Source: Terriglobales bacterium
GTDB taxonomy: Bacteria; Acidobacteriota; Terriglobia; Terriglobales; Acidobacteriaceae
NCBI GenBank assembly: GCA_051006995.1
Contig: JBPCSQ010000022.1
Span: forward strand, 8,047 to 72,046
DNA: 64,000 nt
Direction of reading: 5' to 3'
Positions 14,181 through 33,326 of this stretch are shown here, piece after piece; position 1 is the first letter of the stretch, and each line of letters starts with the position of its first letter. The notes beneath the pieces were generated by a model that did no database searches, had not been told where the DNA came from, and saw only the letters and a program-made list of their open reading frames with translations. A program made the position numbers and the translations under genes.

Positions 14181-15179
14181 ATGAAAGCCTTCGTCACAGG
14201 AGCGACCGGCTTCGTCGGAAGCCATGTTGCGCGCGAACTGGCGGCGCAAGGGGCGGAGCTGCGGTTGCTGGTGAGGCGCACCAGTCCCACGCGAAATATC
14301 GAAAATCTCAATGCCGATCGCGTTTTTGGGGATCTGGCCGATACGGCGGGCCTGCGCCCGGCCATGAGCGGCTGCGATGCGGTATTTCATGTCGCGGCCG
14401 ACTACCGCTTGTGGACACGCGACGCCGCCGACGTGACTTCAATGTATCGCTGTAACGTGGAGGGAACGCGCGGACTGATTGAGACCGCGCGGCAAGCGGG
14501 AGTGAAGCGCATCGTTTACTGCTCGACGGTTGCCACCATGGGATTCACCGGCAACGGCCGGCCCGCGGATGAAACTTCTCCCGTGCGAGCAGAGGAGATG
14601 ATCGGGCATTACAAGCGGTCGAAGTTCGTGGCCGAGCAGGTCGCGCTGGAGGCCGGGCGGTCCGGAGGCGACGTCATCGTCGTTAATCCGACGGCGCCGG
14701 TGGGAGAGCAAGACGTCAAGCCCACGCCGACGGGACGAATCATTCTCGATTTTGTGAAGCGCCAATTTCCCGCGTACGTAGAGACGGGACTCAACATCGT
14801 GGACGTGCGGGAGGTCGCGCGCGGACACGTGGCGGCGCTGGAAAAGGGAAAGCCGGGAGAGCGCTACATCCTGGGCGGCGAGAACCTGACGTTGAAGCAG
14901 ATCCTCGACAAGCTAGCCGCGATTACCGGCATTGCGGCGCCGCGGATCAAGCTGCCATATGTGGTTGCGCTGGCCGCTAGTGTGGGCGATACGGTCGTGA
15001 CAGGGAAGATTCTGCGACGGGAGCCGCGCGTCAGCCTCGACGCAGTGCGTATCGGACGCAAAAAAATGTGGGTGACCTCGGCGAAGGCGGAGCGGGAACT
15101 GGGCTGGCGAATCGTGCCGGTGGATGATGCCTTGCGCAGGGCGGTGGAATGGTTTCGGGCAAACGGCTATGCCGGCTGA
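14181..15179 (+). CDS. hpnA: Hopanoid-associated NAD-dependent sugar epimerase/dehydratase family protein HpnA
   Basis: It has a VTGATGFVGSHV Rossmann motif, a YKRSK catalytic motif, and the expected position in the hpn cluster. Confidence 0.8.
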   Translation: MKAFVTGATGFVGSHVARELAAQGAELRLLVRRTSPTRNIENLNADRVFGDLADTAGLRPAMSGCDAVFHVAADYRLWTRDAADVTSMYRCNVEGTRGLIETARQAGVKRIVYCSTVATMGFTGNGRPADETSPVRAEEMIGHYKRSKFVAEQVALEAGRSGGDVIVVNPTAPVGEQDVKPTPTGRIILDFVKRQFPAYVETGLNIVDVREVARGHVAALEKGKPGERYILGGENLTLKQILDKLAAITGIAAPRIKLPYVVALAASVGDTVVTGKILRREPRVSLDAVRIGRKKMWVTSAKAERELGWRIVPVDDALRRAVEWFRANGYAG

Positions 15180-15180
15180 A

Positions 15181-15870
15181 ATGGCCATCATCGCGGCTTT
15201 GCGGCGTGAAATTTGGCCGCTGGTAAAGACCTGGAAACAGCGAGCGGGGCCAGGTCACATCGAGATTTTCGAGAAGGACAGGTCGGTGGCCATCTGCGGC
15301 GGGGTGGGCGCAGCAGCGGCCCGGGCGGCAGCGGAGTTGGCGTTTGGCATGGCGCGGCCCTGCGTAGTAATCTCTGCGGGCTTTGCCGGGGCACTGGAGC
15401 CCGGCCTGGCGGCCGGAGACGTATTTACGCCGGCGGTGGTAATCGACGCTCGATCGGGACGCAAGTACCCGGCTGGGAATGGTCGAGGCACATTGGTAAG
15501 CGCCTCCGCAGTGAGCAATACGGCCGCCAAGCGCGAATTGGCGACCAAGTTCGGCGCCCAGGCGGTGGACATGGAAGCGGCTGCCGTAGCTGAGGTTGCG
15601 GAAGCACACGGCGTGGCATTCGCTGCGGTAAAGGGGATTTCCGATGCTGCCGGTTTTGTCCTGCCGCCGGTAGCGCGGTTTGTGGATGAATCAGGACGAT
15701 TCCATACCGGGCGCTTCGTGGTGCGTCATTTAATGCGGCCATGGACTTGGCCCAACTTGGCGCGGTTGGCGGTAAATAGCGGGCGTGCATCTCGGGAACT
15801 TTGTCGTACCCTGCTGCATCTGATTGAGAAACAAGCACGAGAAGTCCCAGATGCTGTAAGTCGAACTTGA
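15181..15870 (+). CDS. hpnG: Hopanoid-associated phosphorylase/nucleosidase HpnG (PNP/UDP family)
   Basis: The features GFAGAL, AVDMEAAAVA and KGISD fit the nucleoside phosphorylase fold. The ATG at 15181 is 1 nt after the hpnA stop. An alternative ATG at 15169 overlaps hpnA. Confidence 0.78.
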   Translation: MAIIAALRREIWPLVKTWKQRAGPGHIEIFEKDRSVAICGGVGAAAARAAAELAFGMARPCVVISAGFAGALEPGLAAGDVFTPAVVIDARSGRKYPAGNGRGTLVSASAVSNTAAKRELATKFGAQAVDMEAAAVAEVAEAHGVAFAAVKGISDAAGFVLPPVARFVDESGRFHTGRFVVRHLMRPWTWPNLARLAVNSGRASRELCRTLLHLIEKQAREVPDAVSRT

Positions 15871-18163: not shown

Positions 18164-19090
18164 TTGACCGCTCCCCCCAACTCGGTGCCGTTCGCGGGAC
18201 TGCCGCCGGAGTACGCCATTCCGGCCCAGGCGCCGTCGCTAACAGAGGCACGCGCCTACTGCGAGCGCCTGGCGCGCAGCCATTACGAAAACTTCTCGGT
18301 GGCGACGTGGTTCCTGCCGAAGCGGCTGCGGCCGCACTTTTCCAGTGTGTACGCCTACTGCCGGATTTCCGACGATCTCGGTGATGAAGTCGGCGATCCG
18401 AAGGAATCGTTAAGGTTGCTGGATGAATGGGAAGTCGAGCTCAACGCCTGCTATGACGGGGCGCCCCGGCATCCGGTTTTCGTCGCGTTGCGCGAGACCG
18501 TACGCGCGTGCCAGATTCCGAAGCAGCCGTTCGCCGATCTGCTGAAGGCCTTCCGGCAGGATCAGGCGGCGGGACGGTACCCGACGTTTGAGGACGTTCT
18601 GGCTTACTGCCGATACTCCGCCAACCCGGTGGGGCGGTTGGTGCTGTACGTCTGCGGATATGGTGATGAGGAATGCCAACAGCTTTCCGACTTCACCTGC
18701 ACGGCGCTGCAACTGGCGAACTTCTGGCAGGACGTCTGGCCGGACTTCGGGAAGGGGCGGATCTACATTCCGCTGGACGACCTGCGAAGCCATGGGGTGA
18801 CGGAAGAGGACATAGCGCAACGCCGCTCGACGCAGCAATTTCGGCAGCTGATGAAGTTCGAGGTCGAGCGTGCGCGCGAGTGGTTCGAACGCGGTCTGCC
18901 GCTGGCCAAGAAGGTGGACCCGGAGCTGGCGATTGATATCGAGCTGTTCAGCCGCGGCGGACGGGAGATTCTGAACGCAATCGAGCGGCAGGACTACGAC
19001 GTGCTAACGAGGCGTCCGGTGATTTCCAAGTCACGGAAGCTGATGCTGGTGGCAAGAGCGGCGCTGGGAAAGGTCGGCAGACTGAAATGA
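18164..19090 (+). CDS. hpnC: Squalene synthase-like protein HpnC (hydroxysqualene synthase)
   Basis: It belongs to the trans-isoprenyl diphosphate synthase head-to-head family (YENFSVATWFLP, YAYCRISDDLGDE, QLANFWQDV). It has a TTG start and its stop overlaps the hpnD ATG. Confidence 0.82.
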   Translation: MTAPPNSVPFAGLPPEYAIPAQAPSLTEARAYCERLARSHYENFSVATWFLPKRLRPHFSSVYAYCRISDDLGDEVGDPKESLRLLDEWEVELNACYDGAPRHPVFVALRETVRACQIPKQPFADLLKAFRQDQAAGRYPTFEDVLAYCRYSANPVGRLVLYVCGYGDEECQQLSDFTCTALQLANFWQDVWPDFGKGRIYIPLDDLRSHGVTEEDIAQRRSTQQFRQLMKFEVERAREWFERGLPLAKKVDPELAIDIELFSRGGREILNAIERQDYDVLTRRPVISKSRKLMLVARAALGKVGRLK

Positions 19091-20031
19091 GCGCTGTGAT
19101 TCAGGCCGACCCCGCACGTCCGGCAAACGTCGCCCCGCTGCAACTCCGCACCGCCTATGGTGTCTGCCGGCACATTACGCGCTCGGCCGCGCGAAACTTC
19201 TACTATGCATTCCTGGTGCTGCCCCGGCGCAAGCGCGACGCGCTGAGCGCGGTATACGCGTTCATGCGCCACGCCGACGACCTCAGCGACGATCCCCAGC
19301 TCCCACCCGCGGAGAAACGTGCCAAGCTGGCGGCGTGGCTGGGAGCGCTGCAGGCCGTTACCGGCGGAGAGCCGACCGACGATCCGGTGCTCATGGCCGT
19401 CGCCGACAGCCAGCGGCGTTTCAAGATTCCTCTGGAGCTGCTGGAGAAGCTGGTCTACGGCACGGCCATGGATGTCCAGCTTCCTGACGGGCGGCAACCC
19501 GCAGCCGACAACCCCATCGTCTTGTATGGCACGTTCGACGATCTTTACGGCTACTGCTACCACGTTGCGTCAGTAGTTGGCCTGGCCTGCATTCGCGTCT
19601 TCGGTTACCGCGACTCCGCGGCGGAAAAGCTGGCCGAGCGCTGCGGCGTGGCCTTCCAACTCACCAACATCATCCGCGACCTGAAGGAAGATGCCGCCAT
19701 GGGCCGCGTCTACCTGCCACAGGAAGACCTCGACAAATTTCACATCACGCCCACCATGTTTGCCAACGTTGCGGACCCCTGGGCGTTTCGCCCGCTGCTG
19801 GAGGTGGAAGCGGAACGGGCACGCGAGCTCTACCGTTCCGGACGGGAGTTGATCGCGTACGTGGACGAGGACAGCCGCGCAGCATTGTGGACCCTGGTAG
19901 AAATTTACAGCCGGCTGCTGGAGAAAATCGCGACCACCAACTATGACGTTTTCACACGGCGTGTACGCCTGACCACTAGCGAGAAGCTGCGTATCCTTGC
20001 GAAAGGCCTTTGGCGGCGGATCCGCGAATGA
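19087..20031 (+). CDS. hpnD: Presqualene diphosphate synthase HpnD
   Basis: It is a phytoene/squalene synthase family member (RNFYYAF, YAFMRHADDLSDD, QLTNIIRDLKED). It has ATGA overlaps with both hpnC and hpnE. Confidence 0.85.
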   Translation: MSAVIQADPARPANVAPLQLRTAYGVCRHITRSAARNFYYAFLVLPRRKRDALSAVYAFMRHADDLSDDPQLPPAEKRAKLAAWLGALQAVTGGEPTDDPVLMAVADSQRRFKIPLELLEKLVYGTAMDVQLPDGRQPAADNPIVLYGTFDDLYGYCYHVASVVGLACIRVFGYRDSAAEKLAERCGVAFQLTNIIRDLKEDAAMGRVYLPQEDLDKFHITPTMFANVADPWAFRPLLEVEAERARELYRSGRELIAYVDEDSRAALWTLVEIYSRLLEKIATTNYDVFTRRVRLTTSEKLRILAKGLWRRIRE

Positions 20032-21449
20032 GCGCCGCCGCACGTCCTACGGTTGCCGTGGTGGGCGGCGGGCTGGCGGGTCTGGCGGCAGGTTGCGCGC
20101 TGGCCGATGCCGGGTTTCAGATATCGCTGCTGGAGCGCCGCCCTTATCTTGGCGGGCGCGCCTCGTCCTACCAGCATCCCGGCACCGGGGAAGTGGTGGA
20201 CAACTGCCAGCACGTACTGCTGGGCTGCTGCACCAACCTGATCGATTTGTATCGGCGCATCGGCGCCGAAGACAAGATTCGCTGGTACCGCCGGCTGACA
20301 TTCATCGAGCCCGGCGGGCGCCGCTCGGTCATTGAGCCGGGAATCCTGCCGGCCCCGCTGCACAGCGCCGGGTCTTTCATAGCCGCAGCATTCTTGTCGT
20401 TGCCGGACAAGCTGGCGATCGCGCGTGGGATGCTGTCGCTCCTAGGCGGCCTGCCCGCCGACCTTGACCCGCCCTTCCTGCACTGGTTGCGAGCGCATGG
20501 CCAAACGCAGGCGGCCATTGACCGCTTCTGGAAGGTCGTGCTGGTGAGTGCGCTGAATGAAGACCTGGAGCGGATGTCGTCACGCTATGCGGCGCAGGTC
20601 TTTCGCGAATCATTCCTGAAATCGGCGGAGGCGGGAAGGCTGGGAATTCCCGCTGTGCCGCTGTCGGAGCTCTACGGGATCGCAGGTGACCACATCCGCA
20701 CGCACGGCGGCGAGGTGCAGCTGCGGGCCACAGTGGAATCTGTTCGGGTGCGCAAAGAGGACGCGACGTTGTGCATCGGCGGAAACGAGAAGGTCTTTGA
20801 TTACGTGGTGCTGGCCGTGCCGTTCCAGGGACTGGCATCCATGCTGCCGCCTGACCACGAAGCTGCGCCCCTGCGCTCGGCCCTGGAGCAGTTCGAAACA
20901 TCCCCGATTACCGGAATTCATTTGTGGTTCGACCGCCAGGTTACCGACCTGGATCATGCCGTGCTGCTGGACCGCACCATCCAGTGGATGTTCCACAAAA
21001 GCAGTTTCCAGAGTGCTGATGGGGAGCGAGGTACCGGAAACCAGAAACCAGAAGCCAGGAACTCGTATATCGAGCTGGTGGTCAGCTCCTCAAAAAACCT
21101 TGTGGATATGCCGAAGCAGGAGATCGTCGATCTCGCAATGGGCGAGTTGCAGGAATTTCTGCCCAAGGTGGCAAACGCGCAGTTGCTGAAGTCCACGGTG
21201 ATCAAGGAAGTGAACGCGACATACGCGCCGCTGCCGGGCACGGATGCATACCGAGCGGCGAGCCGGTCTCCTTGGCCGCGCGTGTTCCTGGCCGGCGATT
21301 GGACTGCGACGGGGTGGCCCGCCACCATGGAGGGCGCCGTCCGCAGCGGATATCTTGCAGCCGAGGCGCTTTCCCAAACCGCCGGTACTGCTGCGAAATT
21401 TCTGGTTCCCGATCTAGCGGCACGCGGACTGATGCGCCTGCTCGGCTAA
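20028..21449 (+). CDS. hpnE: Hydroxysqualene dehydroxylase HpnE (FAD-dependent amine-oxidase fold)
   Basis: It has the VAVVGGGLAGLAAG dinucleotide motif and a C-terminal FLAGDWT...ATMEGAVRSG motif. The ATG at 20028 overlaps the hpnD stop. Confidence 0.85.
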   Translation: MSAAARPTVAVVGGGLAGLAAGCALADAGFQISLLERRPYLGGRASSYQHPGTGEVVDNCQHVLLGCCTNLIDLYRRIGAEDKIRWYRRLTFIEPGGRRSVIEPGILPAPLHSAGSFIAAAFLSLPDKLAIARGMLSLLGGLPADLDPPFLHWLRAHGQTQAAIDRFWKVVLVSALNEDLERMSSRYAAQVFRESFLKSAEAGRLGIPAVPLSELYGIAGDHIRTHGGEVQLRATVESVRVRKEDATLCIGGNEKVFDYVVLAVPFQGLASMLPPDHEAAPLRSALEQFETSPITGIHLWFDRQVTDLDHAVLLDRTIQWMFHKSSFQSADGERGTGNQKPEARNSYIELVVSSSKNLVDMPKQEIVDLAMGELQEFLPKVANAQLLKSTVIKEVNATYAPLPGTDAYRAASRSPWPRVFLAGDWTATGWPATMEGAVRSGYLAAEALSQTAGTAAKFLVPDLAARGLMRLLG

Positions 21450-21487
21450 TCCTCCGCCTCGTACTGCTCAACCTATCTCCAACAGGA

Positions 21488-21868
21488 TTAGACGGCGACC
21501 AGGGCGACTCCGCCGGCCACCAGGACTGCGGCTAGCCAGCGTCGCCGGTCCACGCGCTCGTGCAGGAAGATTTTCGCTACAAAAGCGTTTCCGATAAACG
21601 TCAGCGAAGCCGAGGCGGGCGCTACCAGGCTCACGTCGGCCCAGGACAGGGCGAAGAGCAGGGAAAAGAAGGCGACGGCCATGAAGGCAATGCCCACCCA
21701 CAGGGTAGAGTTCGAAACTACCACTTTCACAGTTGCCCACAACCCACGCTGGTGATAGAGGTTAGCGACTTCACCAACTTGTTTCATGGCGAGGGAAGTT
21801 AAGATGTCGCCGGCCACTGCGGCGGCCACGACGGCGAAGATGCTCCCCCAAGTGTAAGCCTCTCTCAC
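21488..21868 (-). CDS. Half-size EamA/DMT-type 4-TM membrane protein (second of a pair)
   Basis: 126 aa with four hydrophobic segments. The GTG start overlaps the stop of the upstream paralogue (GTGA) and AGGAGA lies 6 nt upstream. The track ORF is N-terminally over-extended. Confidence 0.6.
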   Translation of the reverse strand: MREAYTWGSIFAVVAAAVAGDILTSLAMKQVGEVANLYHQRGLWATVKVVVSNSTLWVGIAFMAVAFFSLLFALSWADVSLVAPASASLTFIGNAFVAKIFLHERVDRRRWLAAVLVAGGVALVAV

Positions 21869-22290
21869 GCCGTATCTCCTGCTGGCGGGGCTTGCGAATG
21901 GACGCCGCGCGCGTCCGGTGTCTTGGCGGGACCGGCGGTGACAAATCCCACCCCTACGGCAATGAGCACGATTCCCGCCCAACGCGTCGGGGAGATTTCC
22001 TCATGGAGGAAGAACTTGGCCATCAGCGCCATCAGGATGTAACCGACGGCCGTGGCCGGCAGGACGTAGGTGAGATCGGCGAACGAGAGCGCCGTCAGGT
22101 AGCTGATAAAAAATCCGAGCAGCAGCACAATACCGACCGCCACCCACGGGGTGAAGATGGCGGCAATGGCGCCGGTCCAGTGGCTGAGGGAGAGGGCGCC
22201 CACTTGCTTCATACCGCGCGACAGCGCGACGTCCCCGCAGGCGCCGAACACGACGACGCCCGCCAGGATGGCGATCTTACGGAAGGTCAC
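21865..22290 (-). CDS. Half-size EamA/DMT-type 4-TM membrane protein (first of a pair)
   Basis: 141 aa with four hydrophobic segments and EamA-like sequence (GDVALSRGMKQVG...FLHEEISPTRWAGIVLIAVGV). It starts 9 nt after the radical SAM gene stop. Confidence 0.6.
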   Translation of the reverse strand: MTFRKIAILAGVVVFGACGDVALSRGMKQVGALSLSHWTGAIAAIFTPWVAVGIVLLLGFFISYLTALSFADLTYVLPATAVGYILMALMAKFFLHEEISPTRWAGIVLIAVGVGFVTAGPAKTPDARGVHSQAPPAGDTA

Positions 22291-22299
22291 AGGCTTGTC

Positions 22300-23820
22300 T
22301 CAGGCGTTGATTGGTTCGACCGAGGGCTCCGTTTCCGACTGGGGTTCACCACCCGGCAGGGGAGGCGGAGGCGCAGTGGCCTGCTGCGCGCGCTGTTCTT
22401 TGACGTAGCGGTTGCGGCTGGCGCGCAGCTTCAAGAAGCCCTTGGCCTCTTTGTAAAGGCGTTTGCGTTCCTCGGAGTTGAACACGGCCTTGCGCACGAT
22501 GCGAAACACGGCCCTTGGGCGGAAGTAGTACTCGTCGTAGAAGCGGTGTACCGCCTCCATGATGACGTCGGCCGGGAGTCCGGGGTACTCGATGTGCGCC
22601 AATTGGTGCCCGCCGGCGTCCACCATCGCTTTGTTCGCCAGATAGCCGTTGCGCACCACGAAGTCATACATCTCGGTGCCAGGGTAGGCATGTGCTACCG
22701 AAACCTGAATGGTTTCAACATCCAGTTCCTTGGCGAAATCAATGGTGCGGCGGATGGATTCGCGGGTTTCGCCAGGCAGGCCGAGGATGAAGTCGCCATG
22801 AATCACCAGGCCGAGCTTTTTGCAATCCTTGGTGAACTGGCGGGCGCGCTCGAGGGTGGCGCCTTTCTTGATGTTTTTGAGAATCTGCGCGTCGCCGGAT
22901 TCGTAGCCCACAATGAGCAGCCGGCAGCCGGACTCGCGCATGGCCTTCAGCGTCTCGTAGTCGGTAGTGACGCGCGAAGTGCAGGACCAGGTCAGCTTGA
23001 GCGGCTTCAGCTTCTCGCAAAGCTCGATGGTGCGTGCTTTTTGGATGTTGAATGTATCGTCGTCGAAGAAGAATTCCTTCACGTCCGGCCAGTACTGCTT
23101 GGCTTTGGCCATCTCGCTGGCAACTCGATCGGTCGAGCGCTTTCGCCACGGATGTCCGCTCAGCGTCTGCGGCCACAGGCAGAAGGTGCACTGCGCCGGA
23201 CAGCCGCGCGTGCTGTACAAGGCCACGAATGGATGCTTCAGAAACGGGACGTTGTAGCGGCGGACATCGAGATCGCGCTTGTAAATATCGGTGACATCCG
23301 GCAGAGCATCGAGGTCGCTGACCTGCGGTCCCTCCGGATTGTGAACTACCTTACCGTTCTGGCGATAAGAGACGCCGGGGATCTCCTGCAGCGGCTTGCC
23401 ATTGGCAAAGTCCACCACGGCGTAATCGAACTCGCGCCGGACAATGAAATCAATTTCAGGACATTCGGCGAGCGACTTCTCCGGCAGCACGGTGACATGC
23501 GGTCCGACGAAGGCAATCTTGATGTTGGGATTCGCGCTCTTAATGGCGGCTGCCAGGCGCATGTCGCCGGGAAAACCCGGTGTGCTGGTAAACAGCACCA
23601 GGAAATCGTACTCGCGAGCGATCTCAATGGTCTGGTCGCCGTCAATGTGGTGCGGAGGGGCGTCCAACAGGCGCGAACCCTCCAGCATTCCTGCCGGATA
23701 GGCGAGCCAGACCGGGTACCAGTAGGATTCGATTTCGCGGGTCGCCGGCCAGCGAGAGCTGGCGCCGCCATCAAAGTTCTCGAACGAAGGGGGGTTCAGG
23801 AACAGCGTTCTCAGCGGCAT
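22300..23820 (-). CDS. hpnJ: B12-binding-domain radical SAM protein, HpnJ-like
   Basis: The N-terminus LFLNPPSFENFDGGASSRW...REIESYWYPVWLAYPAG matches my recollection of HpnJ family N-termini. The radical SAM motif is CPAQCTFC. The C-terminal tail is proline-rich. Confidence 0.65.
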   Translation of the reverse strand: MPLRTLFLNPPSFENFDGGASSRWPATREIESYWYPVWLAYPAGMLEGSRLLDAPPHHIDGDQTIEIAREYDFLVLFTSTPGFPGDMRLAAAIKSANPNIKIAFVGPHVTVLPEKSLAECPEIDFIVRREFDYAVVDFANGKPLQEIPGVSYRQNGKVVHNPEGPQVSDLDALPDVTDIYKRDLDVRRYNVPFLKHPFVALYSTRGCPAQCTFCLWPQTLSGHPWRKRSTDRVASEMAKAKQYWPDVKEFFFDDDTFNIQKARTIELCEKLKPLKLTWSCTSRVTTDYETLKAMRESGCRLLIVGYESGDAQILKNIKKGATLERARQFTKDCKKLGLVIHGDFILGLPGETRESIRRTIDFAKELDVETIQVSVAHAYPGTEMYDFVVRNGYLANKAMVDAGGHQLAHIEYPGLPADVIMEAVHRFYDEYYFRPRAVFRIVRKAVFNSEERKRLYKEAKGFLKLRASRNRYVKEQRAQQATAPPPPLPGGEPQSETEPSVEPINA

Positions 23821-24093
23821 GCGATTGATTCGGTTATCCTACCATCCCTCTCTACAATTTTCGGCTGGGCCGGCCAACAAGCAACAAAAAATTGCCCGTG
23901 CGCTTGCGCTGCTGGTACCAACTCAATCTAGGTTAACAGGAAGCCGTTCCCCACCGAAGGCAATCAGGTTCAATGGTAACTTAGATGAGCTGAAAGGCAA
24001 AAGAATTCAGTAGTTTGCGCAGGAAAGTCATCGCGCGAAGCCTTCCGCCGCTCGCTTTTCCGAGAGGCTGGAACCAAAGGCCCGCAGCCGGTT

Positions 24094-25425
24094 TCACGGT
24101 GTTGCCCACCCCTCCAATTGATGCAGCGCGCGGAGTAGCTGCAGCTCGGCTTTCTGCAGCTCAAATGTCATATCCAAATAGGTCGAATACTTGTCGGTGC
24201 TCTGAATGCGGGCCATTTCCAGGTCCTTGGGCCCGGGCGGGGGAGTTGGAGTCTGACCGGGTGCCGCCGGGCTACCGGGCGCGCCAGCCTGAATGCGGGC
24301 CTGGACCGCGTCGGCCTGCTCCTGGGACAGTTGATAATCGAGCTCTGCCACCTGCTGCGCGGCCAGGAGTTGCTTGATGGACCGGGCCAGCTTGATGGTG
24401 TCGTTGGAAACCTGCTGTCGGGTGTTTTCCGCCTGACGCCGCGCCTTGGCGGCTTCGGCGTCGGCGACGTCGGCATGCGCCCGGCCAGCAAAATTCAGCA
24501 CCGGAAAACGGATGGCGACTCCGATGGTCGCATTATTGCTCTGGAAGCGATTGAAGTAGAGATCGTAGTTGTTATAGCGGGTGAACAGGCCGTACTGCGC
24601 GACCGCATCCACGGAAGGAAGCAAGGTGCGGTGCTCGCCGAGGGCGCGCATTGCAACCGCTTGCGCCGTCTGCTCCGCCTGCCTCACCGCGGGATTGGAG
24701 GCCAGCACCGCGGCGACGATGTCGGGCTGCTTGCTGGCATCCGGAATCTCCGGGATGGATTCGGTGACAGTCTCGATCGAGTTGGCCGGCAGGCCGATGA
24801 GTTGCGCCAGGCGCTCGCGCAGCACGGCAGCTGCGCCCTCGGCATCGGCCTGACGCATGAGAACTTGCGCGGCGGCGAGCTTGGCGCGGGTCAGGTCCAT
24901 TTGGGTATCCACCCCGGCCTTCATGCGCTCGGTGACAACATTGACCAGGCGGTCGGCCTCGCTCTGCTGCTGGCTGAGCAGGCGCATGCGGGAGGTGAGC
25001 GTGTCGAGCTGGATGTAGGTGATGACGGCTTCCAGCAAGGTCGCAGCTCGCTGATCGGCAGAGCCGGAGGCGCTGGCCTCCCATTCGCGCTTCGCGGAGC
25101 GGACGAACTCACGCTGCGCCGGGTTGATGAGGTACGACTGGTAGCTGACCTGAAACACCGAGGGCGCCGAGCCCTCGATGCTGAGCGGAAAGCCGAACGT
25201 CTTCGCCAGCCCGGAACCCACTACCAGCGTCGGCAAGAAAGCGTTGCGCGCTTCCAGATAAGCGGCGTGCGCGCGTTCCTGGTCCGCAGCCGCTGTGGAT
25301 GCGGCCCCATGCTGCAACGCCAATTGCATGGCTCGGCGAAAGGGAAGTGGTTCCGACCATCCCGAAGTAACCAGTAAAACCAGCAGGAATACGCAACCCA
25401 GTGATCGCAAGATGAAGGCTTTCAT
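24094..25425 (-). CDS. TolC-family outer membrane efflux protein
   Basis: It has the signal peptide MKAFILRSLGCVFLLVLLVTSGWS and two OEP-type repeats with long helical segments. I moved the start from the track start to the Met with the signal peptide. Confidence 0.8.
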   Translation of the reverse strand: MKAFILRSLGCVFLLVLLVTSGWSEPLPFRRAMQLALQHGAASTAAADQERAHAAYLEARNAFLPTLVVGSGLAKTFGFPLSIEGSAPSVFQVSYQSYLINPAQREFVRSAKREWEASASGSADQRAATLLEAVITYIQLDTLTSRMRLLSQQQSEADRLVNVVTERMKAGVDTQMDLTRAKLAAAQVLMRQADAEGAAAVLRERLAQLIGLPANSIETVTESIPEIPDASKQPDIVAAVLASNPAVRQAEQTAQAVAMRALGEHRTLLPSVDAVAQYGLFTRYNNYDLYFNRFQSNNATIGVAIRFPVLNFAGRAHADVADAEAAKARRQAENTRQQVSNDTIKLARSIKQLLAAQQVAELDYQLSQEQADAVQARIQAGAPGSPAAPGQTPTPPPGPKDLEMARIQSTDKYSTYLDMTFELQKAELQLLRALHQLEGWATP

Positions 25426-25524
25426 GGCAAATACCTTCCCAGTTGGAATCGCAGGCGAGTATAGCAATTGGGTTCAGGGTTCTCGGTGGCCGGATACTCC
25501 AGCGGCAGCGAAGCCCGGTGCGCT

Positions 25525-25560
25525 GTTATGCTTGTGTACAGAGTTATGCTTGTGTACAGA
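25525..25560 (+). repeat. Perfect 2 x 18-bp tandem repeat in divergent promoter region (candidate operator)
   Basis: gttatgcttgtgtacaga occurs twice (25525-25542 and 25543-25560). Each unit contains the palindromic hexamer TGTACA. It lies between the tolC-like (-) and macB-like (+) starts. Confidence 0.85.
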
Positions 25561-25598
25561 GCCGGTCACAACCGACCGACTACCGTGAACCGTTAACC

Positions 25599-26795
25599 AT
25601 GATCAGAGGCGAAACCTGGAACACGGCCCTGGACGCGCTGCGCGCCAACAAGGTGAAGGCGGCGCTCACCATGTTCGGCGTGGTCGTAGGCAGCGCCTGC
25701 CTGGTTCTGGTGGTCACTATCGGCCTCAGCGGCAAGCAATACATCCTCCATCAGATCGAAGGCATTGGTTCCAACCTCATCTACGCCAGCCACACCCAGG
25801 CCGGACCTCTCGAGCCGCGCCCGTTAGCCGATGAAATTTCGATCGCCGATTTGCAGGCGGTTCGGCAACTTCCTGGGGTGGTCTACGCAGCGGGGACCTA
25901 CGACACCGTGGTTACCATTTCTCTGGGGAAGGCTGAGCACGCCGTCAGCATCGTCGGAGTAACCAATGATTTCGCAAAGGTTCGGAACCTCGACGTCGTA
26001 AGAGGCCGCTTTCTAGACGATCTCGACATGGATAGCCGCGCCAAGGCGTGCGTCATTTCCGAGCAACTGGCGAAAGTCCTGCCTTATGACAACCCGATCG
26101 GGCAGGTCATCAAAGTCCTCAACCTGAGCCTCACCGTGGTTGGCGTTTTTAAAGAGCGTGTCGCCACCTTCGGCTTTTCCGAGATCACACCGGAAACCCT
26201 CATCGTTCCGTACAGCCTCAGCCGTTTATTCAGTGGCGAGCAGTACATTCGAACGCTCTACGCACAGGCGGAATCGCCTGATGACACGCCCCGGGTCACC
26301 CGCGAGATCCTGAACCTAATGCAGAGCCGCCACCGTCCTGAGGCCGTTTACACTGTGCTGAACCTTGCAGCCATGCTCGGCGCGGCCCGGCGGATTGCCA
26401 ACGCCTTAACCATCGTGCTGCTCGTCATCGGCTCTGTCACCTTGATCATCAGCGGCATCGGCATTATGAACATCATGCTGGTCACCGTGACGGAGCGGAC
26501 GCGCGAGATCGGCGTGCGCATGGCCATCGGTGCGCGTCGCAGCGAGATCGCCTGGCAGTTCCTGCTTGAGGCGTTCATTATCAGCGGCGCCGGCGCGGTA
26601 CTCGGTATTACTCTCGCGGTGGGGATCCCGATCGTGCTGCAACTGGTATTCCTGAAGAATCTCTACCTGCCGATTTCCTGGATTTCCGTGATCGTTTCGC
26701 TGGTGGTGTCGTGCAGCACGGGAATTCTCTTCGGCTTCCTTCCGGCGCGCCGCGCCTCCTTGCTCCAGCCCACCGAAGCTCTGCACTATGAATGA
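25599..26795 (+). CDS. MacB-type ABC transporter permease (MacB periplasmic core domain + FtsX), no ATPase domain
   Basis: 398 aa with the start at MIRGETWNTALDALRANKVKAALTMFGVVVG. The C-terminal FtsX motif is ERTREIGVRMAIGARRSEI. The track ORF carries a 52-codon spurious leader. Confidence 0.82.
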   Translation: MIRGETWNTALDALRANKVKAALTMFGVVVGSACLVLVVTIGLSGKQYILHQIEGIGSNLIYASHTQAGPLEPRPLADEISIADLQAVRQLPGVVYAAGTYDTVVTISLGKAEHAVSIVGVTNDFAKVRNLDVVRGRFLDDLDMDSRAKACVISEQLAKVLPYDNPIGQVIKVLNLSLTVVGVFKERVATFGFSEITPETLIVPYSLSRLFSGEQYIRTLYAQAESPDDTPRVTREILNLMQSRHRPEAVYTVLNLAAMLGAARRIANALTIVLLVIGSVTLIISGIGIMNIMLVTVTERTREIGVRMAIGARRSEIAWQFLLEAFIISGAGAVLGITLAVGIPIVLQLVFLKNLYLPISWISVIVSLVVSCSTGILFGFLPARRASLLQPTEALHYE

Positions 26796-28098
26796 ACGCG
26801 CCATCGATGGCGAAGCAGCGCCGGAGTTGATTCCGCGCGGGCACATCGCGCTCATGGTGCTGGCCGGACTCGTTGCGCGCCTGGCCACGGTCGCGTTTCT
26901 CTATCGCGATCATCTCGATCCGTCGCGACATAACTGGGAATTCGGCTGGGAGATGGGTATGGTGGCGCAGTCGTTAGCCGCAGGTCACGGCTTCGGCTCG
27001 CCTTTTCCCGGAGGGACTACCGGTCCAACGGCGATGCTGCTGCCGGTATATCCAGCGATCCTGGCGGCGGCGCTCAAAATTTTCGGCGGCATCAATACTG
27101 CGGCAGTCGTGGCCGTGATGGCCGTCAACAGTCTGCTCTCGGCGCTGACCGCTGTTCCCGTGTTTCTGCTGGCCCGCCGCGAGTTCGGGACCAGAGTCGC
27201 AATCTGGGCAGGATGGATCTGGGCGTTCTTTCCCTACGGCGTATATCTAGCCGGTGGGCGGGTATGGGATACGCAGGCGATCACACTGCTGCTGGCGTGG
27301 CTGTTGTACTTCACGTACCGCCTTGCCGAGAGCTTTCGGATTTCGCTTTGGCTGCTCTACGGAGTGCTGTGGGGATTGGCTGCGTTGACCAACCCTTCTC
27401 TGCTGGTAGTGCTGCCAGTGTTACTCGGCGTGGTCTGCTACCGCTGGCATCGCAACCGTCAGCCATGGTTCGCACGCGCCGTGATCGTGGCGCTGATATT
27501 GGCGGCGATGGTCACGCCGTGGGAAATTCGCAATTATCGCGTTTTTCACCAATTCATCCCGCTGCGCGACAATTTCTGGATGGAGGTCCGCATTGGCAAC
27601 ACCGGGGACCTCAGCAACATTGATCCTGACTGGACACATCCCTGGTGGCCGGCACGCTTTCAGGAGTTCCAACAATGGGGCGAACTGGGATTCATAGCCG
27701 AATCGCGGCGTCAGGCGGTCGATTTTATCAGTAGATATCCCGGCATGTTCGCGTGGATCACCGCCAAGCACGTGGTCTTCACCTGGACGGGCTTCTGGAG
27801 CCTCGATCCCGCTTATACGCGGGAGGAGCCCATGCAGATCCCCAACGTGATCTTCTGCTCGTTCTGGACAGTGGTGATGATCTTTGGACTGCGCCGGGCT
27901 CGGGCTGTGCACGGCTGGACAGAACTGCTGCCGTACCTCGCCGTCTTGGCGCTGTACCCCGCGCTGTTCTACATTTCCCATCCTACGCTTGAGTACCGCC
28001 ACGTGGTGGACCCGGTGGTGGTGGTGTTTAGCGCGTGCGCGCTGGCAAGGTGGCGAACAAACTCATCGCTGGAAAAAGCGAAGGCGCAGGCCGGATGA
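26788..28098 (+). CDS. GT-C fold membrane glycosyltransferase (family 39 / ArnT-PMT-like)
   Basis: 436 aa with about 10 predicted TM segments and an N-terminal region typical of ArnT-like enzymes. The start overlaps the permease stop by 8 nt. Confidence 0.6.
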   Translation: MNERAIDGEAAPELIPRGHIALMVLAGLVARLATVAFLYRDHLDPSRHNWEFGWEMGMVAQSLAAGHGFGSPFPGGTTGPTAMLLPVYPAILAAALKIFGGINTAAVVAVMAVNSLLSALTAVPVFLLARREFGTRVAIWAGWIWAFFPYGVYLAGGRVWDTQAITLLLAWLLYFTYRLAESFRISLWLLYGVLWGLAALTNPSLLVVLPVLLGVVCYRWHRNRQPWFARAVIVALILAAMVTPWEIRNYRVFHQFIPLRDNFWMEVRIGNTGDLSNIDPDWTHPWWPARFQEFQQWGELGFIAESRRQAVDFISRYPGMFAWITAKHVVFTWTGFWSLDPAYTREEPMQIPNVIFCSFWTVVMIFGLRRARAVHGWTELLPYLAVLALYPALFYISHPTLEYRHVVDPVVVVFSACALARWRTNSSLEKAKAQAG

Positions 28099-32093: not shown

Positions 32094-33326
32094 ATGCCGA
32101 CTCGCCAGTATCCGCGCGCCGCGCTGATTACGCTGACGGCCCTCAATCTCTTCAACTACATTGATCGCTACGTGCTGTTCGCCGTCCAGCCGCTCATCCA
32201 GCACGAATTTCACGTTAACGACATCGCCATCGGATTCCTGACCACCGCTTTTTTCTGGTGCTACATGGGAGTTGCGCCGTTCGTCGGTGTGCTCGGCGAC
32301 CGCTATCCGCGCAAGTGGATCATCGTGGGTGGAGCGCTGGTGTGGAGCGCGGCCACGCTGCTTACGGCGGTGACCTTCGACTTCCGCACTCTGCTCATCC
32401 GGCATGTGATTGTCGGCATCGGCGAGGCCAGCTTCGGGATCGTTGCCCCGGGATTCATTTCCGACCTCTATTCCGAGGAACGGCGCGGCCGTGTCATGTC
32501 CATTCTCTACCTGGCGCAACCGGTGGGCAGCGCGCTCGGCTACATGATTGGCGGCCAACTGGGACAGCTTTATGGCTGGCGCGCCCCCTTCTACGTTGCC
32601 GCTGCGCCCGGATTTGTGCTCGCCTTGTGTTTTGTTTTTCTGCCCGAACCGCCGCGCGGCAACGCCGACCGGCTGCGGGAGACACACGAGCGCGGCACCG
32701 TTCGCGGCCTGTTCCACAATCGCGCCTTCTGGACGGCGACGCTGGCCATGGCGCTGGTCACGTTTGCCCTGGGCGGCATGTCGGTATGGATGCCGACCTT
32801 CCTGCACCGCATGCGTGGTATTCCGTTGGGAAGAGCCGGCGTGATCTTCGGCGGCATCACGGCGGTCACCGGGGTTTTCGGCACCCTGACCGGCGGCTGG
32901 ATCGGCGACCGCCTGCTGCGGCGCACTCCAGCCGCGCATTACCTGATCGCCAGCTTTACGCTGGTGCTCGCCGCCCCGGCCATGGTGGTGGCCATCTTCA
33001 CCGGCGGACGCTACATGTTTCCCGCGATGTTCGTAGCCGCTTTCCTGCTGTTCATGAATACCGGCCCGCTGAATGCGGCCGTAGTGACCTCGGTTGGCGC
33101 ACATATCCGCGCCACTGCCGTCGCCGTGAACATCTTCACCATCCACCTGCTCGGCGACAGCTTCTCGCCACAGCTCATGGGCTACATTTCCGCGCGCAGC
33201 TCGCTGGACAAGGCCTTTATTGCCGCTTTCTTCGCGATCTTCGGCGCGGCGGTAGTCCTGTTCTACGGCAGGCGCTATGCGCCTCGACTCGCTATCGGGC
33301 AGCAATCCGGCGGCACGGCCTCGTGA
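32094..33326 (+). CDS. MFS transporter, Spinster-like subfamily
   Basis: It has LNLFNYIDRYVLFAVQPLIQHEF...GVLGDRYPRKWII and 12 predicted TM segments. Confidence 0.78.
   Translation: MPTRQYPRAALITLTALNLFNYIDRYVLFAVQPLIQHEFHVNDIAIGFLTTAFFWCYMGVAPFVGVLGDRYPRKWIIVGGALVWSAATLLTAVTFDFRTLLIRHVIVGIGEASFGIVAPGFISDLYSEERRGRVMSILYLAQPVGSALGYMIGGQLGQLYGWRAPFYVAAAPGFVLALCFVFLPEPPRGNADRLRETHERGTVRGLFHNRAFWTATLAMALVTFALGGMSVWMPTFLHRMRGIPLGRAGVIFGGITAVTGVFGTLTGGWIGDRLLRRTPAAHYLIASFTLVLAAPAMVVAIFTGGRYMFPAMFVAAFLLFMNTGPLNAAVVTSVGAHIRATAVAVNIFTIHLLGDSFSPQLMGYISARSSLDKAFIAAFFAIFGAAVVLFYGRRYAPRLAIGQQSGGTAS

What the first reader, a model, noticed from the sequence alone, without database searches (positions are those of the whole stretch)
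21488..23820. hpnJ-like radical SAM gene in an operon with two translationally coupled half-size EamA transporters
**Seen in the sequence.** The HpnJ-like gene is followed at a 9-nt gap by two paralogous 4-TM EamA-type proteins whose genes overlap (GTGA). The whole operon is convergent on hpnE.

**Established knowledge.** HpnJ acts with the glycosyltransferase HpnI and the deacetylase HpnK to make bacteriohopanetetrol cyclitol ether. Neither gene is adjacent here. The only GT2 candidate lies 10 kb away, at 33323-34486.

**Inference.** Paired half-size small-multidrug-resistance-like (drug/metabolite transporter-type) proteins are known as heterodimeric lipid-linked sugar flippases (ArnE/ArnF). 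This pair could therefore flip a glycosylated hopanoid or a lipid-linked precursor across the inner membrane. No such step has been described for hopanoids, where export is otherwise attributed to the RND protein HpnN.
Basis: partly seen in the sequence, partly recalled or inferred. Interest (0 to 1): 0.62.

Follow-up and report, generated by a model that had tools for sequence, protein, structure and literature searches.

The report
Hopanoid head-group transporter pair candidate
Two small, paired membrane-protein genes that follow the hopanoid gene hpnJ belong to an unnamed family that travels with, or is fused to, the enzymes that put an amino sugar on hopanoid lipids throughout the Acidobacteria, which makes the pair the best available candidate for the unknown protein that moves these lipids across the inner membrane.

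Summary
On the minus strand, a true hpnJ (22300-23820) is followed after 9 nt by a 141-aa protein (E1, 21865-22290). E1 overlaps by GTGA a 126-aa paralogue (E2, 21488-21868). The unit converges on hpnCDE.

E1 and E2 are 4-helix proteins. Their predicted fold matches the small-multidrug-resistance (SMR) proteins EmrE and Gdx. Their best named sequence relative is ArnE, at scores far below membership.

**Linkage.**
- In 301 Acidobacteriota genomes the pair occurs in 34 of 37 with hpnJ, and in one of 264 without.
- That one genome has a truncated hpnJ beside the pair.
- In other classes the order is hpnJ-hpnK-E1-E2-hpnI.
- In Blastocatellia, E2 is fused in frame to HpnI.
- Two of the three hpnJ genomes that lack the pair carry an HpnL-like, flippase-like gene in the same operon, as Proteobacteria do.
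- This genome has neither HpnL nor HpnN.

**Reading.** The pair is most likely a heterodimeric, SMR-type flippase for bacteriohopanetetrol (BHT) glucosamine or BHT cyclitol ether. The genomic link is shown; transport is inferred.

I found no published description. Earlier notes of this scan reached the same reading in other genomes.

The parts
22300..23820 (-). hpnJ, a B12-binding radical SAM enzyme that forms the cyclitol ether head group of bacteriohopanetetrol
   Evidence: TIGR03471 779.7 bits against cut-off 577.6. PF02310 and PF04055 domains. CPAQCTFC at residues 207-214. It is the only copy in the genome.
22291..22299 (-). 9-nt spacer between the hpnJ stop and the E1 start
   Evidence: Read directly from the sequence.
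21865..22290 (-). E1, a 141-aa 4-helix SMR-fold / EamA-like half transporter and first subunit of the pair
   Evidence: GTG start; the N-terminus MTFRK is conserved in orthologues. PF00892 28.1 bits. AlphaFold2 pLDDT 84.8 with helices 3-30, 48-70, 73-94 and 101-118. The top ten Foldseek matches are EmrE or Gdx-Clo.
21875..21880 (-). AGGAGA ribosome-binding site for E2, inside the end of E1
   Evidence: Lies 6 nt upstream of the E2 GTG.
21488..21868 (-). E2, a 126-aa paralogue of E1 and second subunit; its start overlaps the E1 stop (GTGA)
   Evidence: 42% identical to E1, E 7e-17. ArnE model 23.1 bits and E 6e-5, below cut-off. D21, E104, R109, R110 and W111 are invariant. K+R count is 8.9 in loops 1 and 3 against 0.8 elsewhere.
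21450..21487 (.). 38-nt spacer between the convergent stops of hpnE and E2
   Evidence: No terminator-like site was found there by the simple scan.
18164..21449 (+). hpnC, hpnD and hpnE (squalene synthesis), convergent on the hpnJ-E1-E2 unit; context only
   Evidence: TIGR03464 355.7 bits. TIGR03465 246.9 bits (below cut-off 278.6). TIGR03467 489.5 bits.
23821..24093 (-). 273-nt non-coding leader upstream of hpnJ, presumed promoter region of the three-gene unit
   Evidence: A terminator-like hairpin lies at 24099-24082, after the upstream tolC-like gene. No sigma-70 consensus was found.

Best explanation
**What it is.** hpnJ, E1 and E2 form one transcription unit. E1 and E2 are two paralogous 4-helix proteins of the DMT superfamily with the SMR protomer fold. 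They most likely assemble into an antiparallel heterodimer in the inner membrane.

**Family.** The pair belongs to an unnamed family that is a dedicated part of the hopanoid amino-sugar head-group module:
- HpnI adds GlcNAc to bacteriohopanetetrol (BHT);
- HpnK removes the acetyl group;
- HpnJ contracts the ring to the cyclitol ether.

**Proposed mechanism (inferred).**
- The three enzymes act at the cytoplasmic face, because they need UDP-GlcNAc, S-adenosylmethionine and a reductant.
- The E1/E2 dimer binds that cationic head group in a central cavity lined by the conserved helix-1 carboxylates (D20 in E1, D21 in E2).
- It moves the head group to the periplasmic leaflet by alternating access. 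The hopanoid rings stay in the lipid phase through a lateral opening. The movement is possibly coupled to proton antiport, as in SMR transporters.

**Relation to HpnL.** In Proteobacteria and in a few Acidobacteria, the unrelated flippase-like protein HpnL sits in the same operon position and probably does the same job.

**Shown:** gene structure, family assignments, fold prediction, conserved synteny, fusion to HpnI, and mutual exclusion with HpnL-like genes in the operon.

**Inferred:** heterodimer formation, antiparallel topology, substrate, direction and energy coupling.
For: 1. **Identity.** HpnJ lies over its curated cut-off. The window also carries shc, hpnH, hpnA and hpnCDE.

2. **Fold.**
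- The E1 model has pLDDT 84.8 and four transmembrane helices.
- All ten best PDB matches are SMR proteins, EmrE and Gdx-Clo, with target-normalised TM-scores of 0.59-0.76.
- The best named sequence relatives are ArnE and 10-helix DMT carriers.

3. **Co-occurrence.**
- The pair is present in 34 of 37 HpnJ-positive genomes and in 1 of 264 others. Fisher p is 3e-40, not corrected for phylogeny. Seven taxonomic families are involved.
- 22 pairs lie within 300 nt of hpnJ and 8 have one gene in between.

4. **Operon membership.** The order hpnJ-hpnK-E1-E2-(ddpX)-hpnI occurs in two other families, with HpnK and HpnI over their cut-offs.

5. **Fusion.**
- E2::HpnI occurs in frame in Blastocatellia, downstream of hpnK-E1.
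- The E2 part of that fusion finds 221 protein clusters at E <= 1e-5. The best 120 listed are nearly all 520-570 aa and carry EamA plus GT2 domains.

6. **When the operon is broken up**, the pair stays with hpnI (G186), with hpnJ (this genome) or beside hpnE (L122, L124, L125).

7. **Genomes without hpnJ** have E-like::GT21 fusions, or the order YdjC, E-like, GT21::ABC.

8. **Displacement.**
- The three HpnJ-positive genomes without the pair have hpnI-J-K-hpnL-like (G056), hpnJ-hpnL-like (G276) or hpnJ-K-I (G024).
- Mycetohabitans has hpnI-J-K-hpnL and no E1 or E2.

9. **This genome has no HpnL and no HpnN**.

10. **Conserved residues.**
- The helix-1 acid is conserved: D in 30 of 30 E2 sequences; D in 55, N in 7 and E in 1 of 63 E1 sequences. 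It is E in the fusions.
- E97 and W104 are invariant in both subunits.

11. **Topology.**
- E2 has a strong positive-inside bias, which places both its ends outside.
- That fits the fusion, where one helix and an RDRQRQR stretch separate E2 from the cytoplasmic GT domain.
- A cyanobacterial single-chain homologue has an extra hydrophobic segment between its halves. That gives 9 helices, so the halves are inverted.

12. **Precedent for a lipid-like substrate.** An SMR protein is solved in complex with a cationic head group carrying a long alkyl tail (8vxu, Gdx-Clo with a cetyltrimethyl ligand, listed).
Against: - No experiment bears on transport.
- HpnI, HpnK and HpnJ work in Proteobacteria without this pair, so it is not needed for catalysis as such.
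- Four Korobacter-like genomes have hpnJ but only a paralogous 'b-type' pair in an unrelated context. G024 has hpnJ-K-I with neither the pair nor an adjacent HpnL-like gene. The function is therefore dispensable or replaceable.
- E1 and E2 fail the curated ArnE model (23.1 against 92 bits) and have no PF00893 match.
- The profile alignment to EmrE covers only helices 3-4, so equating the helix-1 acid with EmrE Glu14 is my own reading.
- E1 has no clear charge bias (3.3 against 2.7), so the antiparallel arrangement is not established.
- The E2 domain and the linker of the fusion model have low confidence.
- SD1 Acidobacteria are reported to lack hpnK (PMC5462960). Here only two YdjC proteins below the cut-off exist, at 197 bits against 232.6. 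It is therefore not certain which head group this organism makes.
- No RNA data exist for co-transcription.
Confidence: 0.55

Rival explanations
1. The pair is a non-transporting membrane subunit of the HpnI (or HpnI/K/J) complex. It would recruit bacteriohopanetetrol from the bilayer, or hold the glycolipid head group at the membrane surface for the soluble enzymes HpnK and HpnJ. It would not move the product to the other leaflet.
For: - The fusion partner is the first enzyme, HpnI, not the last.
- The pair also occurs with HpnI-like enzymes where hpnJ is absent.
- HpnJ and HpnK have no membrane segments of their own and must reach a membrane lipid (domain content).
Against: - Unfused HpnI has its own transmembrane helices, and its fold resembles membrane-integrated GT2 enzymes that take lipid or polymer acceptors unaided.
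- Proteobacterial HpnI/J/K work without the pair (PMC12583986, citing Schmerk 2015).
- The conserved membrane-embedded carboxylates and the SMR fold are hallmarks of transport rather than scaffolding.
- The alternative operon partner, HpnL, matches a flippase-like domain model.
Confidence: 0.17
2. The pair is an ArnE/ArnF-type flippase for a polyprenyl-phosphate-linked sugar. That sugar would feed a periplasmic GT-C (ArnT-like) transferase, and the link to hopanoid genes would be secondary.
For: - ArnE is the best named relative.
- In one related genome the pair is followed by an ArnT-like GT-C gene (L123).
- A membrane gene at window 26788-28098, which another first-stage note calls GT39/ArnT-like, lies 3 kb upstream of hpnJ. 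It had no NCBIfam match here.
Against: - No polyprenyl-phosphate glycosyltransferase (ArnC-like) lies in any of the operons examined.
- The pair sits between hpnK and hpnI and is fused to HpnI, which uses a nucleotide sugar and a hopanoid acceptor.
- Presence of the pair tracks hpnJ almost one to one.
- The GT-C neighbour was seen in only one locus.
Confidence: 0.08
3. The pair is an ordinary SMR-like exporter of a small cationic solute (guanidinium, a polyamine or a quaternary ammonium compound), or it is otherwise unrelated to hopanoids and merely sits beside hpnJ.
For: - The fold matches EmrE and Gdx.
- Paralogous b-type pairs occur in unrelated contexts (phoU/ddl; MacB-type permease and asparagine synthase).
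- A cyanobacterial single-chain homologue is not next to hpn genes.
Against: - Synteny holds across several classes.
- In-frame fusion to HpnI occurs in 221 protein clusters.
- The pair is almost absent from genomes without hpnJ.
- There is no PF00893 match.
Confidence: 0.06

Closest known systems
ArnE/ArnF (PmrM/PmrL), the undecaprenyl-phosphate-4-amino-4-deoxy-L-arabinose flippase of E. coli and Salmonella (function from my own knowledge: Yan, Guan and Raetz 2007)
   Same: - Two adjacent, paralogous proteins of about 110-140 aa with four helices each, translationally coupled, of the DMT/SMR kind.
- They lie in an operon with the enzymes that build a lipid carrying a cationic amino sugar.
- ArnE is the best named relative in NCBIfam and by tblastn against Pantoea arnE, E about 1e-4.
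   Different: - The scores are far below the ArnE cut-off: 23.1 against 92 bits.
- The lipid would be a triterpenoid glycoside, not a polyprenyl phosphate sugar.
- The partners are HpnI/HpnK/HpnJ, not ArnA-D and ArnT.
- One subunit can be fused to the glycosyltransferase.
SMR transporters EmrE and Gdx, and the paired SMR heterodimers (EbrAB, MdtIJ)
   Same: - The predicted protomer fold is the same.
- The size and the four helices agree.
- A conserved carboxylate lies in helix 1.
- One subunit has a strong charge bias and the other a weak one, as expected for a fixed antiparallel heterodimer.
   Different: - There is no Pfam PF00893 match.
- The profile alignment to EmrE covers helices 3-4 only.
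- Loop 1 is long and includes an extra short helix.
- The LHE...RW motif is conserved.
- The genomic context points to a lipid, not a drug.
HpnL (TIGR03476; LPG-synthase-TM / flippase-like family), the unassigned membrane protein of proteobacterial hpnI-J-K-L operons
   Same: - It occupies the same operon position.
- It is mutually exclusive with the pair in the operons examined.
- Both are integral membrane proteins related to flippases of cationic amino lipids.
- Its function is also unknown (PMC12583986; bioRxiv 10.1101/2025.07.29.667474).
   Different: - It is an unrelated fold and family: a single chain of about 320-350 aa.
- This genome has no HpnL.
- The acidobacterial HpnL-like proteins score below the curated cut-off, at 111.7 and 155 bits against 195.65.
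HpnN, the RND transporter that moves hopanoids from the inner to the outer membrane
   Same: It is the only hopanoid transporter with experimental support (cited in PMC12583986).
   Different: - It is a different family and a different step: between membranes rather than between leaflets.
- It is absent from this genome, with a best score of 19 bits.

Membership tests
HpnJ (TIGR03471) | Whole-protein score at or above the curated equivalog cut-off | tested here: met
   779.7 bits against 577.6; the match covers 2-471 of 472 model positions.
HpnJ (TIGR03471) | N-terminal B12-binding domain, radical SAM domain and a CxxxCxxC cluster motif | tested here: met
   PF02310 58.1 bits and PF04055 76 bits. 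CPAQCTFC at residues 207-214.
HpnJ (TIGR03471) | Occurs in a genome that has the hopanoid core pathway | tested here: met
   In the same window: shc 743 bits, hpnH 533 bits, hpnA 485 bits and hpnC/hpnE.
HpnJ (TIGR03471) | Converts BHT-glucosamine to BHT cyclitol ether | not testable with these tools
   This needs lipid analysis of a mutant. Canonical hpnK is missing here: two YdjC proteins score 197 bits against a cut-off of 232.6.
ArnE/ArnF | Score over the curated ArnE (NF011625) or ArnF model cut-off | tested here: not met
   E2 scores 23.1 bits against 92. E1 has no match to either model.
ArnE/ArnF | Two adjacent, co-translated, paralogous 4-helix subunits | tested here: met
   GTGA overlap. 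42% identity. Four helices.
ArnE/ArnF | Encoded within the arn operon (with ArnC and ArnT) and acting on undecaprenyl-phosphate-Ara4N | tested here: not met
   The neighbours are hpn genes, and no ArnC-like gene lies in any operon examined. The substrate cannot be tested here.
SMR family (Pfam PF00893; EmrE, Gdx) | Sequence match to the family model | tested here: not met
   No PF00893 match at E <= 0.001. hhalign to EmrE aligns helices 3-4 only, probability 61%.
SMR family (Pfam PF00893; EmrE, Gdx) | 4-helix protomer fold | tested here: met
   All ten top Foldseek matches are EmrE or Gdx-Clo, with probability 0.94 to 1.0 and target TM-scores of 0.59-0.76. The model has pLDDT 84.8.
SMR family (Pfam PF00893; EmrE, Gdx) | Essential membrane-embedded carboxylate in helix 1 (Glu14 of EmrE) | tested here: inconclusive
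   An acid is conserved in helix 1 of both subunits. Its equivalence to Glu14 rests on my own pattern match, not on a computed alignment.
SMR family (Pfam PF00893; EmrE, Gdx) | Antiparallel dimer | tested here: inconclusive
   E2 is strongly biased and E1 is balanced. The fusion to HpnI fits E2 with both ends outside. The 9-helix single-chain homologue implies inverted halves. No dimer model could be made.
EamA / DMT superfamily (Pfam PF00892) | Score at or above the gathering threshold of 28.2 bits | tested here: inconclusive
   E1 28.1 bits and E2 22.6 bits. Most homologues carry a precomputed PF00892 hit. There are weak profile matches to SLC35B1, NIPA2 and the CMP-sialic acid transporter.
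HpnL (TIGR03476) | Sequence membership | tested here: not met
   No match in the whole genome. E1 and E2 belong to another superfamily. Only the operon position is shared.

The most novel reading that the evidence does not exclude
E1/E2 would be the first dedicated inner-membrane flippase for a hopanoid glycolipid, and the first SMR-type lipid flippase whose substrate is not a polyprenyl phosphate sugar. It would be proton-coupled through its two helix-1 carboxylates. It would be functionally interchangeable with HpnL, which would thereby also receive its long-missing function. The E2::HpnI fusions would then be natural synthase-flippase machines that hand the product directly from the glycosyltransferase to the transporter.
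Probability: 0.4. Interest if true: 0.8.

Novelty: new variant of a known kind. Interest (0 to 1): 0.64.

Why it matters
Hopanoids are the bacterial counterparts of sterols and the source of the most abundant molecular fossils. How the extended, amino-sugar-bearing forms get from their cytoplasmic site of synthesis to the outer leaflet and the outer membrane is unknown.
- The only transporter with experimental support, HpnN, is missing from this organism.
- HpnL has had no function since it was named.

A small, genetically simple pair that is tied to HpnI/HpnK/HpnJ by synteny, fusion and mutual exclusion with HpnL gives a concrete, testable candidate for the leaflet-crossing step. It also suggests the same role for HpnL.

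It would extend the substrates of SMR-fold proteins from drugs and polyprenyl-linked sugars to triterpenoid glycolipids.

For annotation, the fused proteins are at present named simply 'HpnI' and the pair 'EamA family transporter'.

Tried and rejected
1. **The pair goes with B12-radical SAM enzymes in general.**
- A second pair in this genome (G000:C4:192039-192805) lies 1.7 kb from another B12-rSAM gene.
- ddl lies between them and the genes converge. The other neighbours are phoU-like and peptidase genes.
- The same b-type pair elsewhere sits beside a MacB-type permease and an asparagine synthase.
- Rejected.

2. **Natural E1::E2 single-chain forms in Terriglobia as proof of a parallel dimer.**
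- Six apparent fusions were found.
- All are singletons and two have garbled segments.
- The contig of P0245 has split hpnJ, hpnE and hpnD genes.
- They were rejected as assembly indels.

3. **The GT2 at 33323-34486 as HpnI.** Rejected: HpnI model 51.6 bits, HpnB-like 148 bits.

4. **Co-transcription from RNA-seq.** Only two DNA metagenome runs hold the stretch, so no RNA evidence exists.

5. **Extending the test to other phyla.**
- The genome search cannot be centred on a locus of another collection.
- Plasmid records gave proteobacterial hpnI-J-K-L without the pair, and a cyanobacterial single-chain homologue without hpn neighbours.
- A paper lists an 'EamA-like transporter' in the Leptospirillum hopanoid cluster (PMC12654047). 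I could not check it.

6. **A full alignment to EmrE** succeeded only for helices 3-4.

7. **Promoter and terminator scans** gave nothing above the shuffled background.

8. **The contexts of the two hpnI and two hpnK-like genes of this genome** show no hopanoid or transporter neighbours.
Full report
**1. What is in the sequence**

Three genes lie head to tail on the minus strand.
- A 506-aa gene at 22300-23820 ends with TGA.
- Nine bases later (GACAAGCCT), a GTG opens a 141-aa gene, E1 (21865-22290).
- The E1 stop overlaps the GTG start of a 126-aa gene, E2 (21488-21868), as GTGA. AGGAGA lies six bases upstream of that start.
- E2 ends 38 nt from the stop of the convergent hpnE (20010-21449).
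- Upstream of the first gene is a 273-nt leader. It follows a terminator-like hairpin behind a tolC-like gene.

The stated coordinates, the 9-nt gap and the overlap are therefore all correct.

**2. Identities**

- The 506-aa protein is HpnJ. TIGR03471 scores 779.7 bits against a cut-off of 577.6, and the next family scores 141 bits.
- It has a B12-binding domain, a radical SAM domain and CPAQCTFC at residues 207-214. It is the only copy in the genome.
- The window also carries ispH, shc (743 bits), hpnH (533), hpnA (485), an hpnG-like gene, two zinc dehydrogenases, hpnC, hpnD and hpnE.
- E1 and E2 are paralogues: 42% identity, E 7e-17.
- Their family matches are weak. Pfam EamA gives 28.1 and 22.6 bits against a gathering score of 28.2. 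TMEM234 gives 26.2 bits. The NCBIfam ArnE model gives 23.1 bits for E2 against a cut-off of 92.
- Public sources call the homologues 'DMT-like permease' or 'EamA family transporter'.

**3. Fold**

- An AlphaFold2 model of E1, built from 93 sequences, has pLDDT 84.8. It has four long helices (3-30, 48-70, 73-94, 101-118) and a short helix in loop 1.
- Against the PDB, the ten best matches are all SMR proteins: EmrE and Gdx-Clo, probability 0.94 to 1.0, target-normalised TM-score 0.59-0.76. Ten-helix DMT carriers follow.
- Sequence profiles reach only weak matches to SLC35B1, NIPA2 and the CMP-sialic acid transporter. They align to EmrE over helices 3-4 only.
- tblastn of E1 against plasmid records finds annotated arnE genes of Pantoea at E about 1e-4.
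- The pair is therefore a divergent, unnamed branch of the DMT superfamily with the SMR protomer fold. It is not a member of the ArnE, ArnF or PF00893 families by their models.

**4. Conserved residues and topology**

- Both subunits keep G-D in helix 1. The acid is D in 30 of 30 E2 sequences. In E1 it is D in 55, N in 7 and E in 1 of 63 sequences.
- Both also keep an A-D-L/V motif after helix 2, P78, and L-H-E...R-W between helices 3 and 4.
- E2 carries 8.9 Lys+Arg in loops 1 and 3 against 0.8 at its ends and loop 2. By the positive-inside rule its ends face the periplasm.
- E1 is balanced, at 2.7 against 3.3.
- Two further observations fit an antiparallel pair.
  - In the E2::HpnI fusions, E2 is joined to HpnI by a non-hydrophobic linker. 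Then follow one hydrophobic helix and RDRQRQR before the glycosyltransferase domain, which must be cytoplasmic.
  - A 280-aa single-chain homologue in Gloeothece verrucosa has a 39-residue hydrophobic stretch between its halves. That is room for one extra helix plus helix 1 of the second half, which gives nine helices and inverted halves.
- These are sequence-based inferences. No dimer model could be made, and the E2 and linker parts of the fusion model are of low confidence.

**5. Linkage near this genome**

- HpnJ as query returned 80 loci from Terriglobia-like genomes.
- In 64 of the 73 loci with more than 1.2 kb of downstream DNA, E1 and then E2 follow hpnJ on the same strand, at 47-70% identity. 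HpnJ itself is 76-83% identical.
- All nine exception genomes hold a pair elsewhere.
  - In three, the pair still lies beside hpnE, convergent as here, and hpnJ has moved away (L122, L124, L125).
  - In one, it is followed by an ArnT-like GT-C gene (L123).
  - In four Korobacter-like genomes, only a more distant 'b-type' pair is found, next to a MacB-type permease and an asparagine synthase.

**6. Linkage across the phylum**

- In 301 Acidobacteriota genomes, 37 have HpnJ over the cut-off.
- A profile of E1 finds two adjacent matches in 34 of them.
- It finds two adjacent matches in only one other genome, G206, where a truncated hpnJ lies beside the pair.
- Fisher's exact p is 3e-40. This is not corrected for relatedness. 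The positive genomes come from seven taxonomic families.
- Spacing:
  - 22 pairs lie within 300 nt of hpnJ;
  - 8 have one gene in between;
  - 1 lies 8 kb away;
  - 3 lie on another contig.
- In families f49 and f39 the intervening gene is hpnK (295-310 bits against a cut-off of 232.6), and hpnI (365-386 bits against 310) follows the pair. The order is hpnJ-hpnK-E1-E2-(ddpX-like)-hpnI.
- In G186 the pair travels with an HpnI-type GT21 gene instead of hpnJ.
- In two Blastocatellia genomes the order is hpnK-like, E1, then E2 fused in frame to HpnI, giving proteins of 556 and 539 aa.
- A search with the E2 part of that fusion finds 221 clusters at E <= 1e-5. The best 120 listed are nearly all 520-570 aa and carry EamA plus GT2 domains. 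NCBI names them simply 'HpnI'.
- Genomes without hpnJ have an E-like::GT21 fusion (G150), or the order YdjC, E-like, GT21::ABC-ATPase (G115).
- The family is therefore tied to the whole amino-sugar module, and most tightly to HpnI.

**7. Displacement by HpnL**

- Three HpnJ-positive genomes lack the pair. Their HpnJ proteins are only 47-49% identical to this one, as distant as proteobacterial HpnJ.
  - G056 has hpnI-hpnJ-hpnK followed by an HpnL-like gene.
  - G276 has an HpnL-like gene 12 nt after hpnJ. This is the best HpnL match of the whole phylum scan, at 155 bits.
  - G024 has hpnJ-hpnK-hpnI with neither.
- The HpnL-like proteins also match the 'flippase-like domain' model TIGR00374 below its cut-off of 43.2 bits.
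- In Mycetohabitans rhizoxinica the order is hpnI-hpnJ-hpnK-hpnL with overlapping stops and starts. That HpnL scores 327.7 bits. No E1 or E2 is present there or at the Methylobacterium locus.
- No genome of the scan has an HpnL match over the cut-off, and the genome of this window has no match at all.
- It also lacks HpnN.
- Two unrelated membrane proteins thus alternate in one operon position. This is the pattern expected of non-orthologous displacement.

**8. Mechanism**

- According to the literature, HpnI makes BHT-N-acetylglucosamine, HpnK deacetylates it and HpnJ forms the cyclitol ether (PMC12583986, citing Schmerk et al. 2015).
- All three enzymes need cytoplasmic substrates, so the products arise in the inner leaflet.
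- The products carry a large polar head group with a free amine and need help to cross the bilayer.
- I propose that the E1/E2 dimer binds the protonated amine between its two helix-1 carboxylates. It would move the head group across by alternating access while the ring system slides through a lateral opening. This movement is possibly driven by proton antiport.
- Precedents:
  - ArnE/ArnF handle a lipid-linked amino sugar (my own knowledge);
  - Gdx-Clo has been solved in complex with a cationic head group on a long alkyl tail (entry 8vxu, listed);
  - the flippase domain of MprF, to which HpnL-type proteins are related, moves the cationic lipid lysyl-phosphatidylglycerol (my own knowledge).
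- Confidence:
  - about 0.9 that the pair is a dedicated part of the hopanoid amino-sugar module;
  - about 0.55 that it is the flippase.

**9. Rivals**

- A non-transporting subunit of the HpnI complex (0.17). This fits the fusion to the first enzyme, but not the SMR fold, the buried carboxylates or the replacement by a flippase-like protein.
- A polyprenyl-phosphate sugar flippase for a GT-C enzyme (0.08). This fits the ArnE similarity and one locus, but no ArnC-like gene is ever present.
- An ordinary small-cation exporter or chance neighbour (0.06). This is contradicted by the synteny, the fusion and the co-occurrence.

**10. What is known**

- Sinninghe Damste et al. 2017 (PMC5462960) describe the acidobacterial hopanoid clusters. 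[quoted passage not shown]
- The preprint 'Origin and transport of bacterial hopanoids' proposes HpnL, HpnM, HpnS and HpnT. It lists 'EamA domain' only as item 130 of a supplementary table.
- The 2025 alphaproteobacterial survey states that the function of hpnL is unknown.
- A Leptospirillum paper lists an 'EamA-like transporter' among the domains of the hopanoid cluster.
- Searches for hopanoid with EamA, and for hpnI/hpnK with flippase, found nothing further.
- Earlier notes of this scan, on other genomes, reached the same candidate-flippase reading. They are AI notes, not independent evidence. I read them.

**11. Verdict**

- The interpretation passes every computational test that could be run and is extended by the hpnK/hpnI linkage, the HpnI fusion and the HpnL displacement. 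The transport function remains an inference.
- I file it as a new variant of a known kind: a paired small DMT/SMR lipid-linked amino-sugar flippase acting on a hopanoid glycolipid.

Noticed in passing
G000:C4:192039-192805 (locus L099 6007-6803): This genome holds a second, more distant pair of coupled half-size EamA genes (145 and 120 aa). It lies between a phoU-like gene and a convergent ddl, and an uncharacterised B12-binding radical SAM gene lies just beyond ddl. The same b-type pair in other Terriglobia lies next to a MacB-type permease and an asparagine-synthase-like amidotransferase (L127, L128, L130). Its function is unknown.
   Followed up: partly
G000:C37:196611-197480 and G000:C28:108008-108862 (L007, L008): Two YdjC-family genes match the HpnK model end to end but score below its cut-off (197 and 196 bits against 232.6). 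SD1 Acidobacteria are reported to lack hpnK. One of the two lies beside a polyprenyl-phosphate-type GT2. Which protein, if any, deacetylates BHT-GlcNAc here is open.
   Followed up: partly
G000:C15:30160-31269 and G000:C10:29258-30397 (L001, L002): Two hpnI genes score over the cut-off (386.7 and 318.5 bits). Both lie far from all other hpn genes. The second has an N-terminal extension of about 125 aa that is not E2-like.
   Followed up: partly
L103 2591-4822 (-), genome G115: An HpnI-type GT21 glycosyltransferase is fused to an ABC-transporter ATPase domain (743 aa). It lies downstream of a YdjC deacetylase and a single E-like 4-helix gene, in a genome without hpnJ. This is an unusual architecture that again couples this glycosyltransferase to transport.
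   Followed up: no
L108 4607-5362 (-) and L109 4846-5577 (-): In two genomes of the same family as this one, a gene of 243-251 aa with no Pfam or NCBIfam match lies directly downstream of hpnJ. In L108 it separates hpnJ from the pair.
   Followed up: no
L104 7771-8454: A D-Ala-D-Ala dipeptidase (DdpX/VanX-like, 155 bits, below cut-off) lies between the pair and hpnI in one hpnJ-hpnK-E1-E2-hpnI operon.
   Followed up: no
window 24094-28098: Directly upstream of hpnJ lie a tolC-like gene, a MacB-type permease without an ATPase domain, and an overlapping membrane gene with no NCBIfam match. Another first-stage note calls that gene GT39/ArnT-like. MacB-type permeases also flank the b-type pairs elsewhere, so a link between these permeases and the small pairs may be worth a look.
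   Followed up: no
L134 8989-9831 (Gloeothece verrucosa PCC 7822 plasmid NC_014533.1): A 280-aa single-chain homologue carries both halves (each with the G-D helix-1 motif) and an extra hydrophobic segment between them. It is annotated 'DMT family transporter'. It is not near hpn genes, and no HpnI is encoded on that plasmid.
   Followed up: partly
window 19087-20031 and 15124-15870: hpnD (246.9 bits against 278.6) and the hpnG-like gene (105 bits against 187) fall below their curated cut-offs, although they sit in the expected places in the cluster.
   Followed up: no
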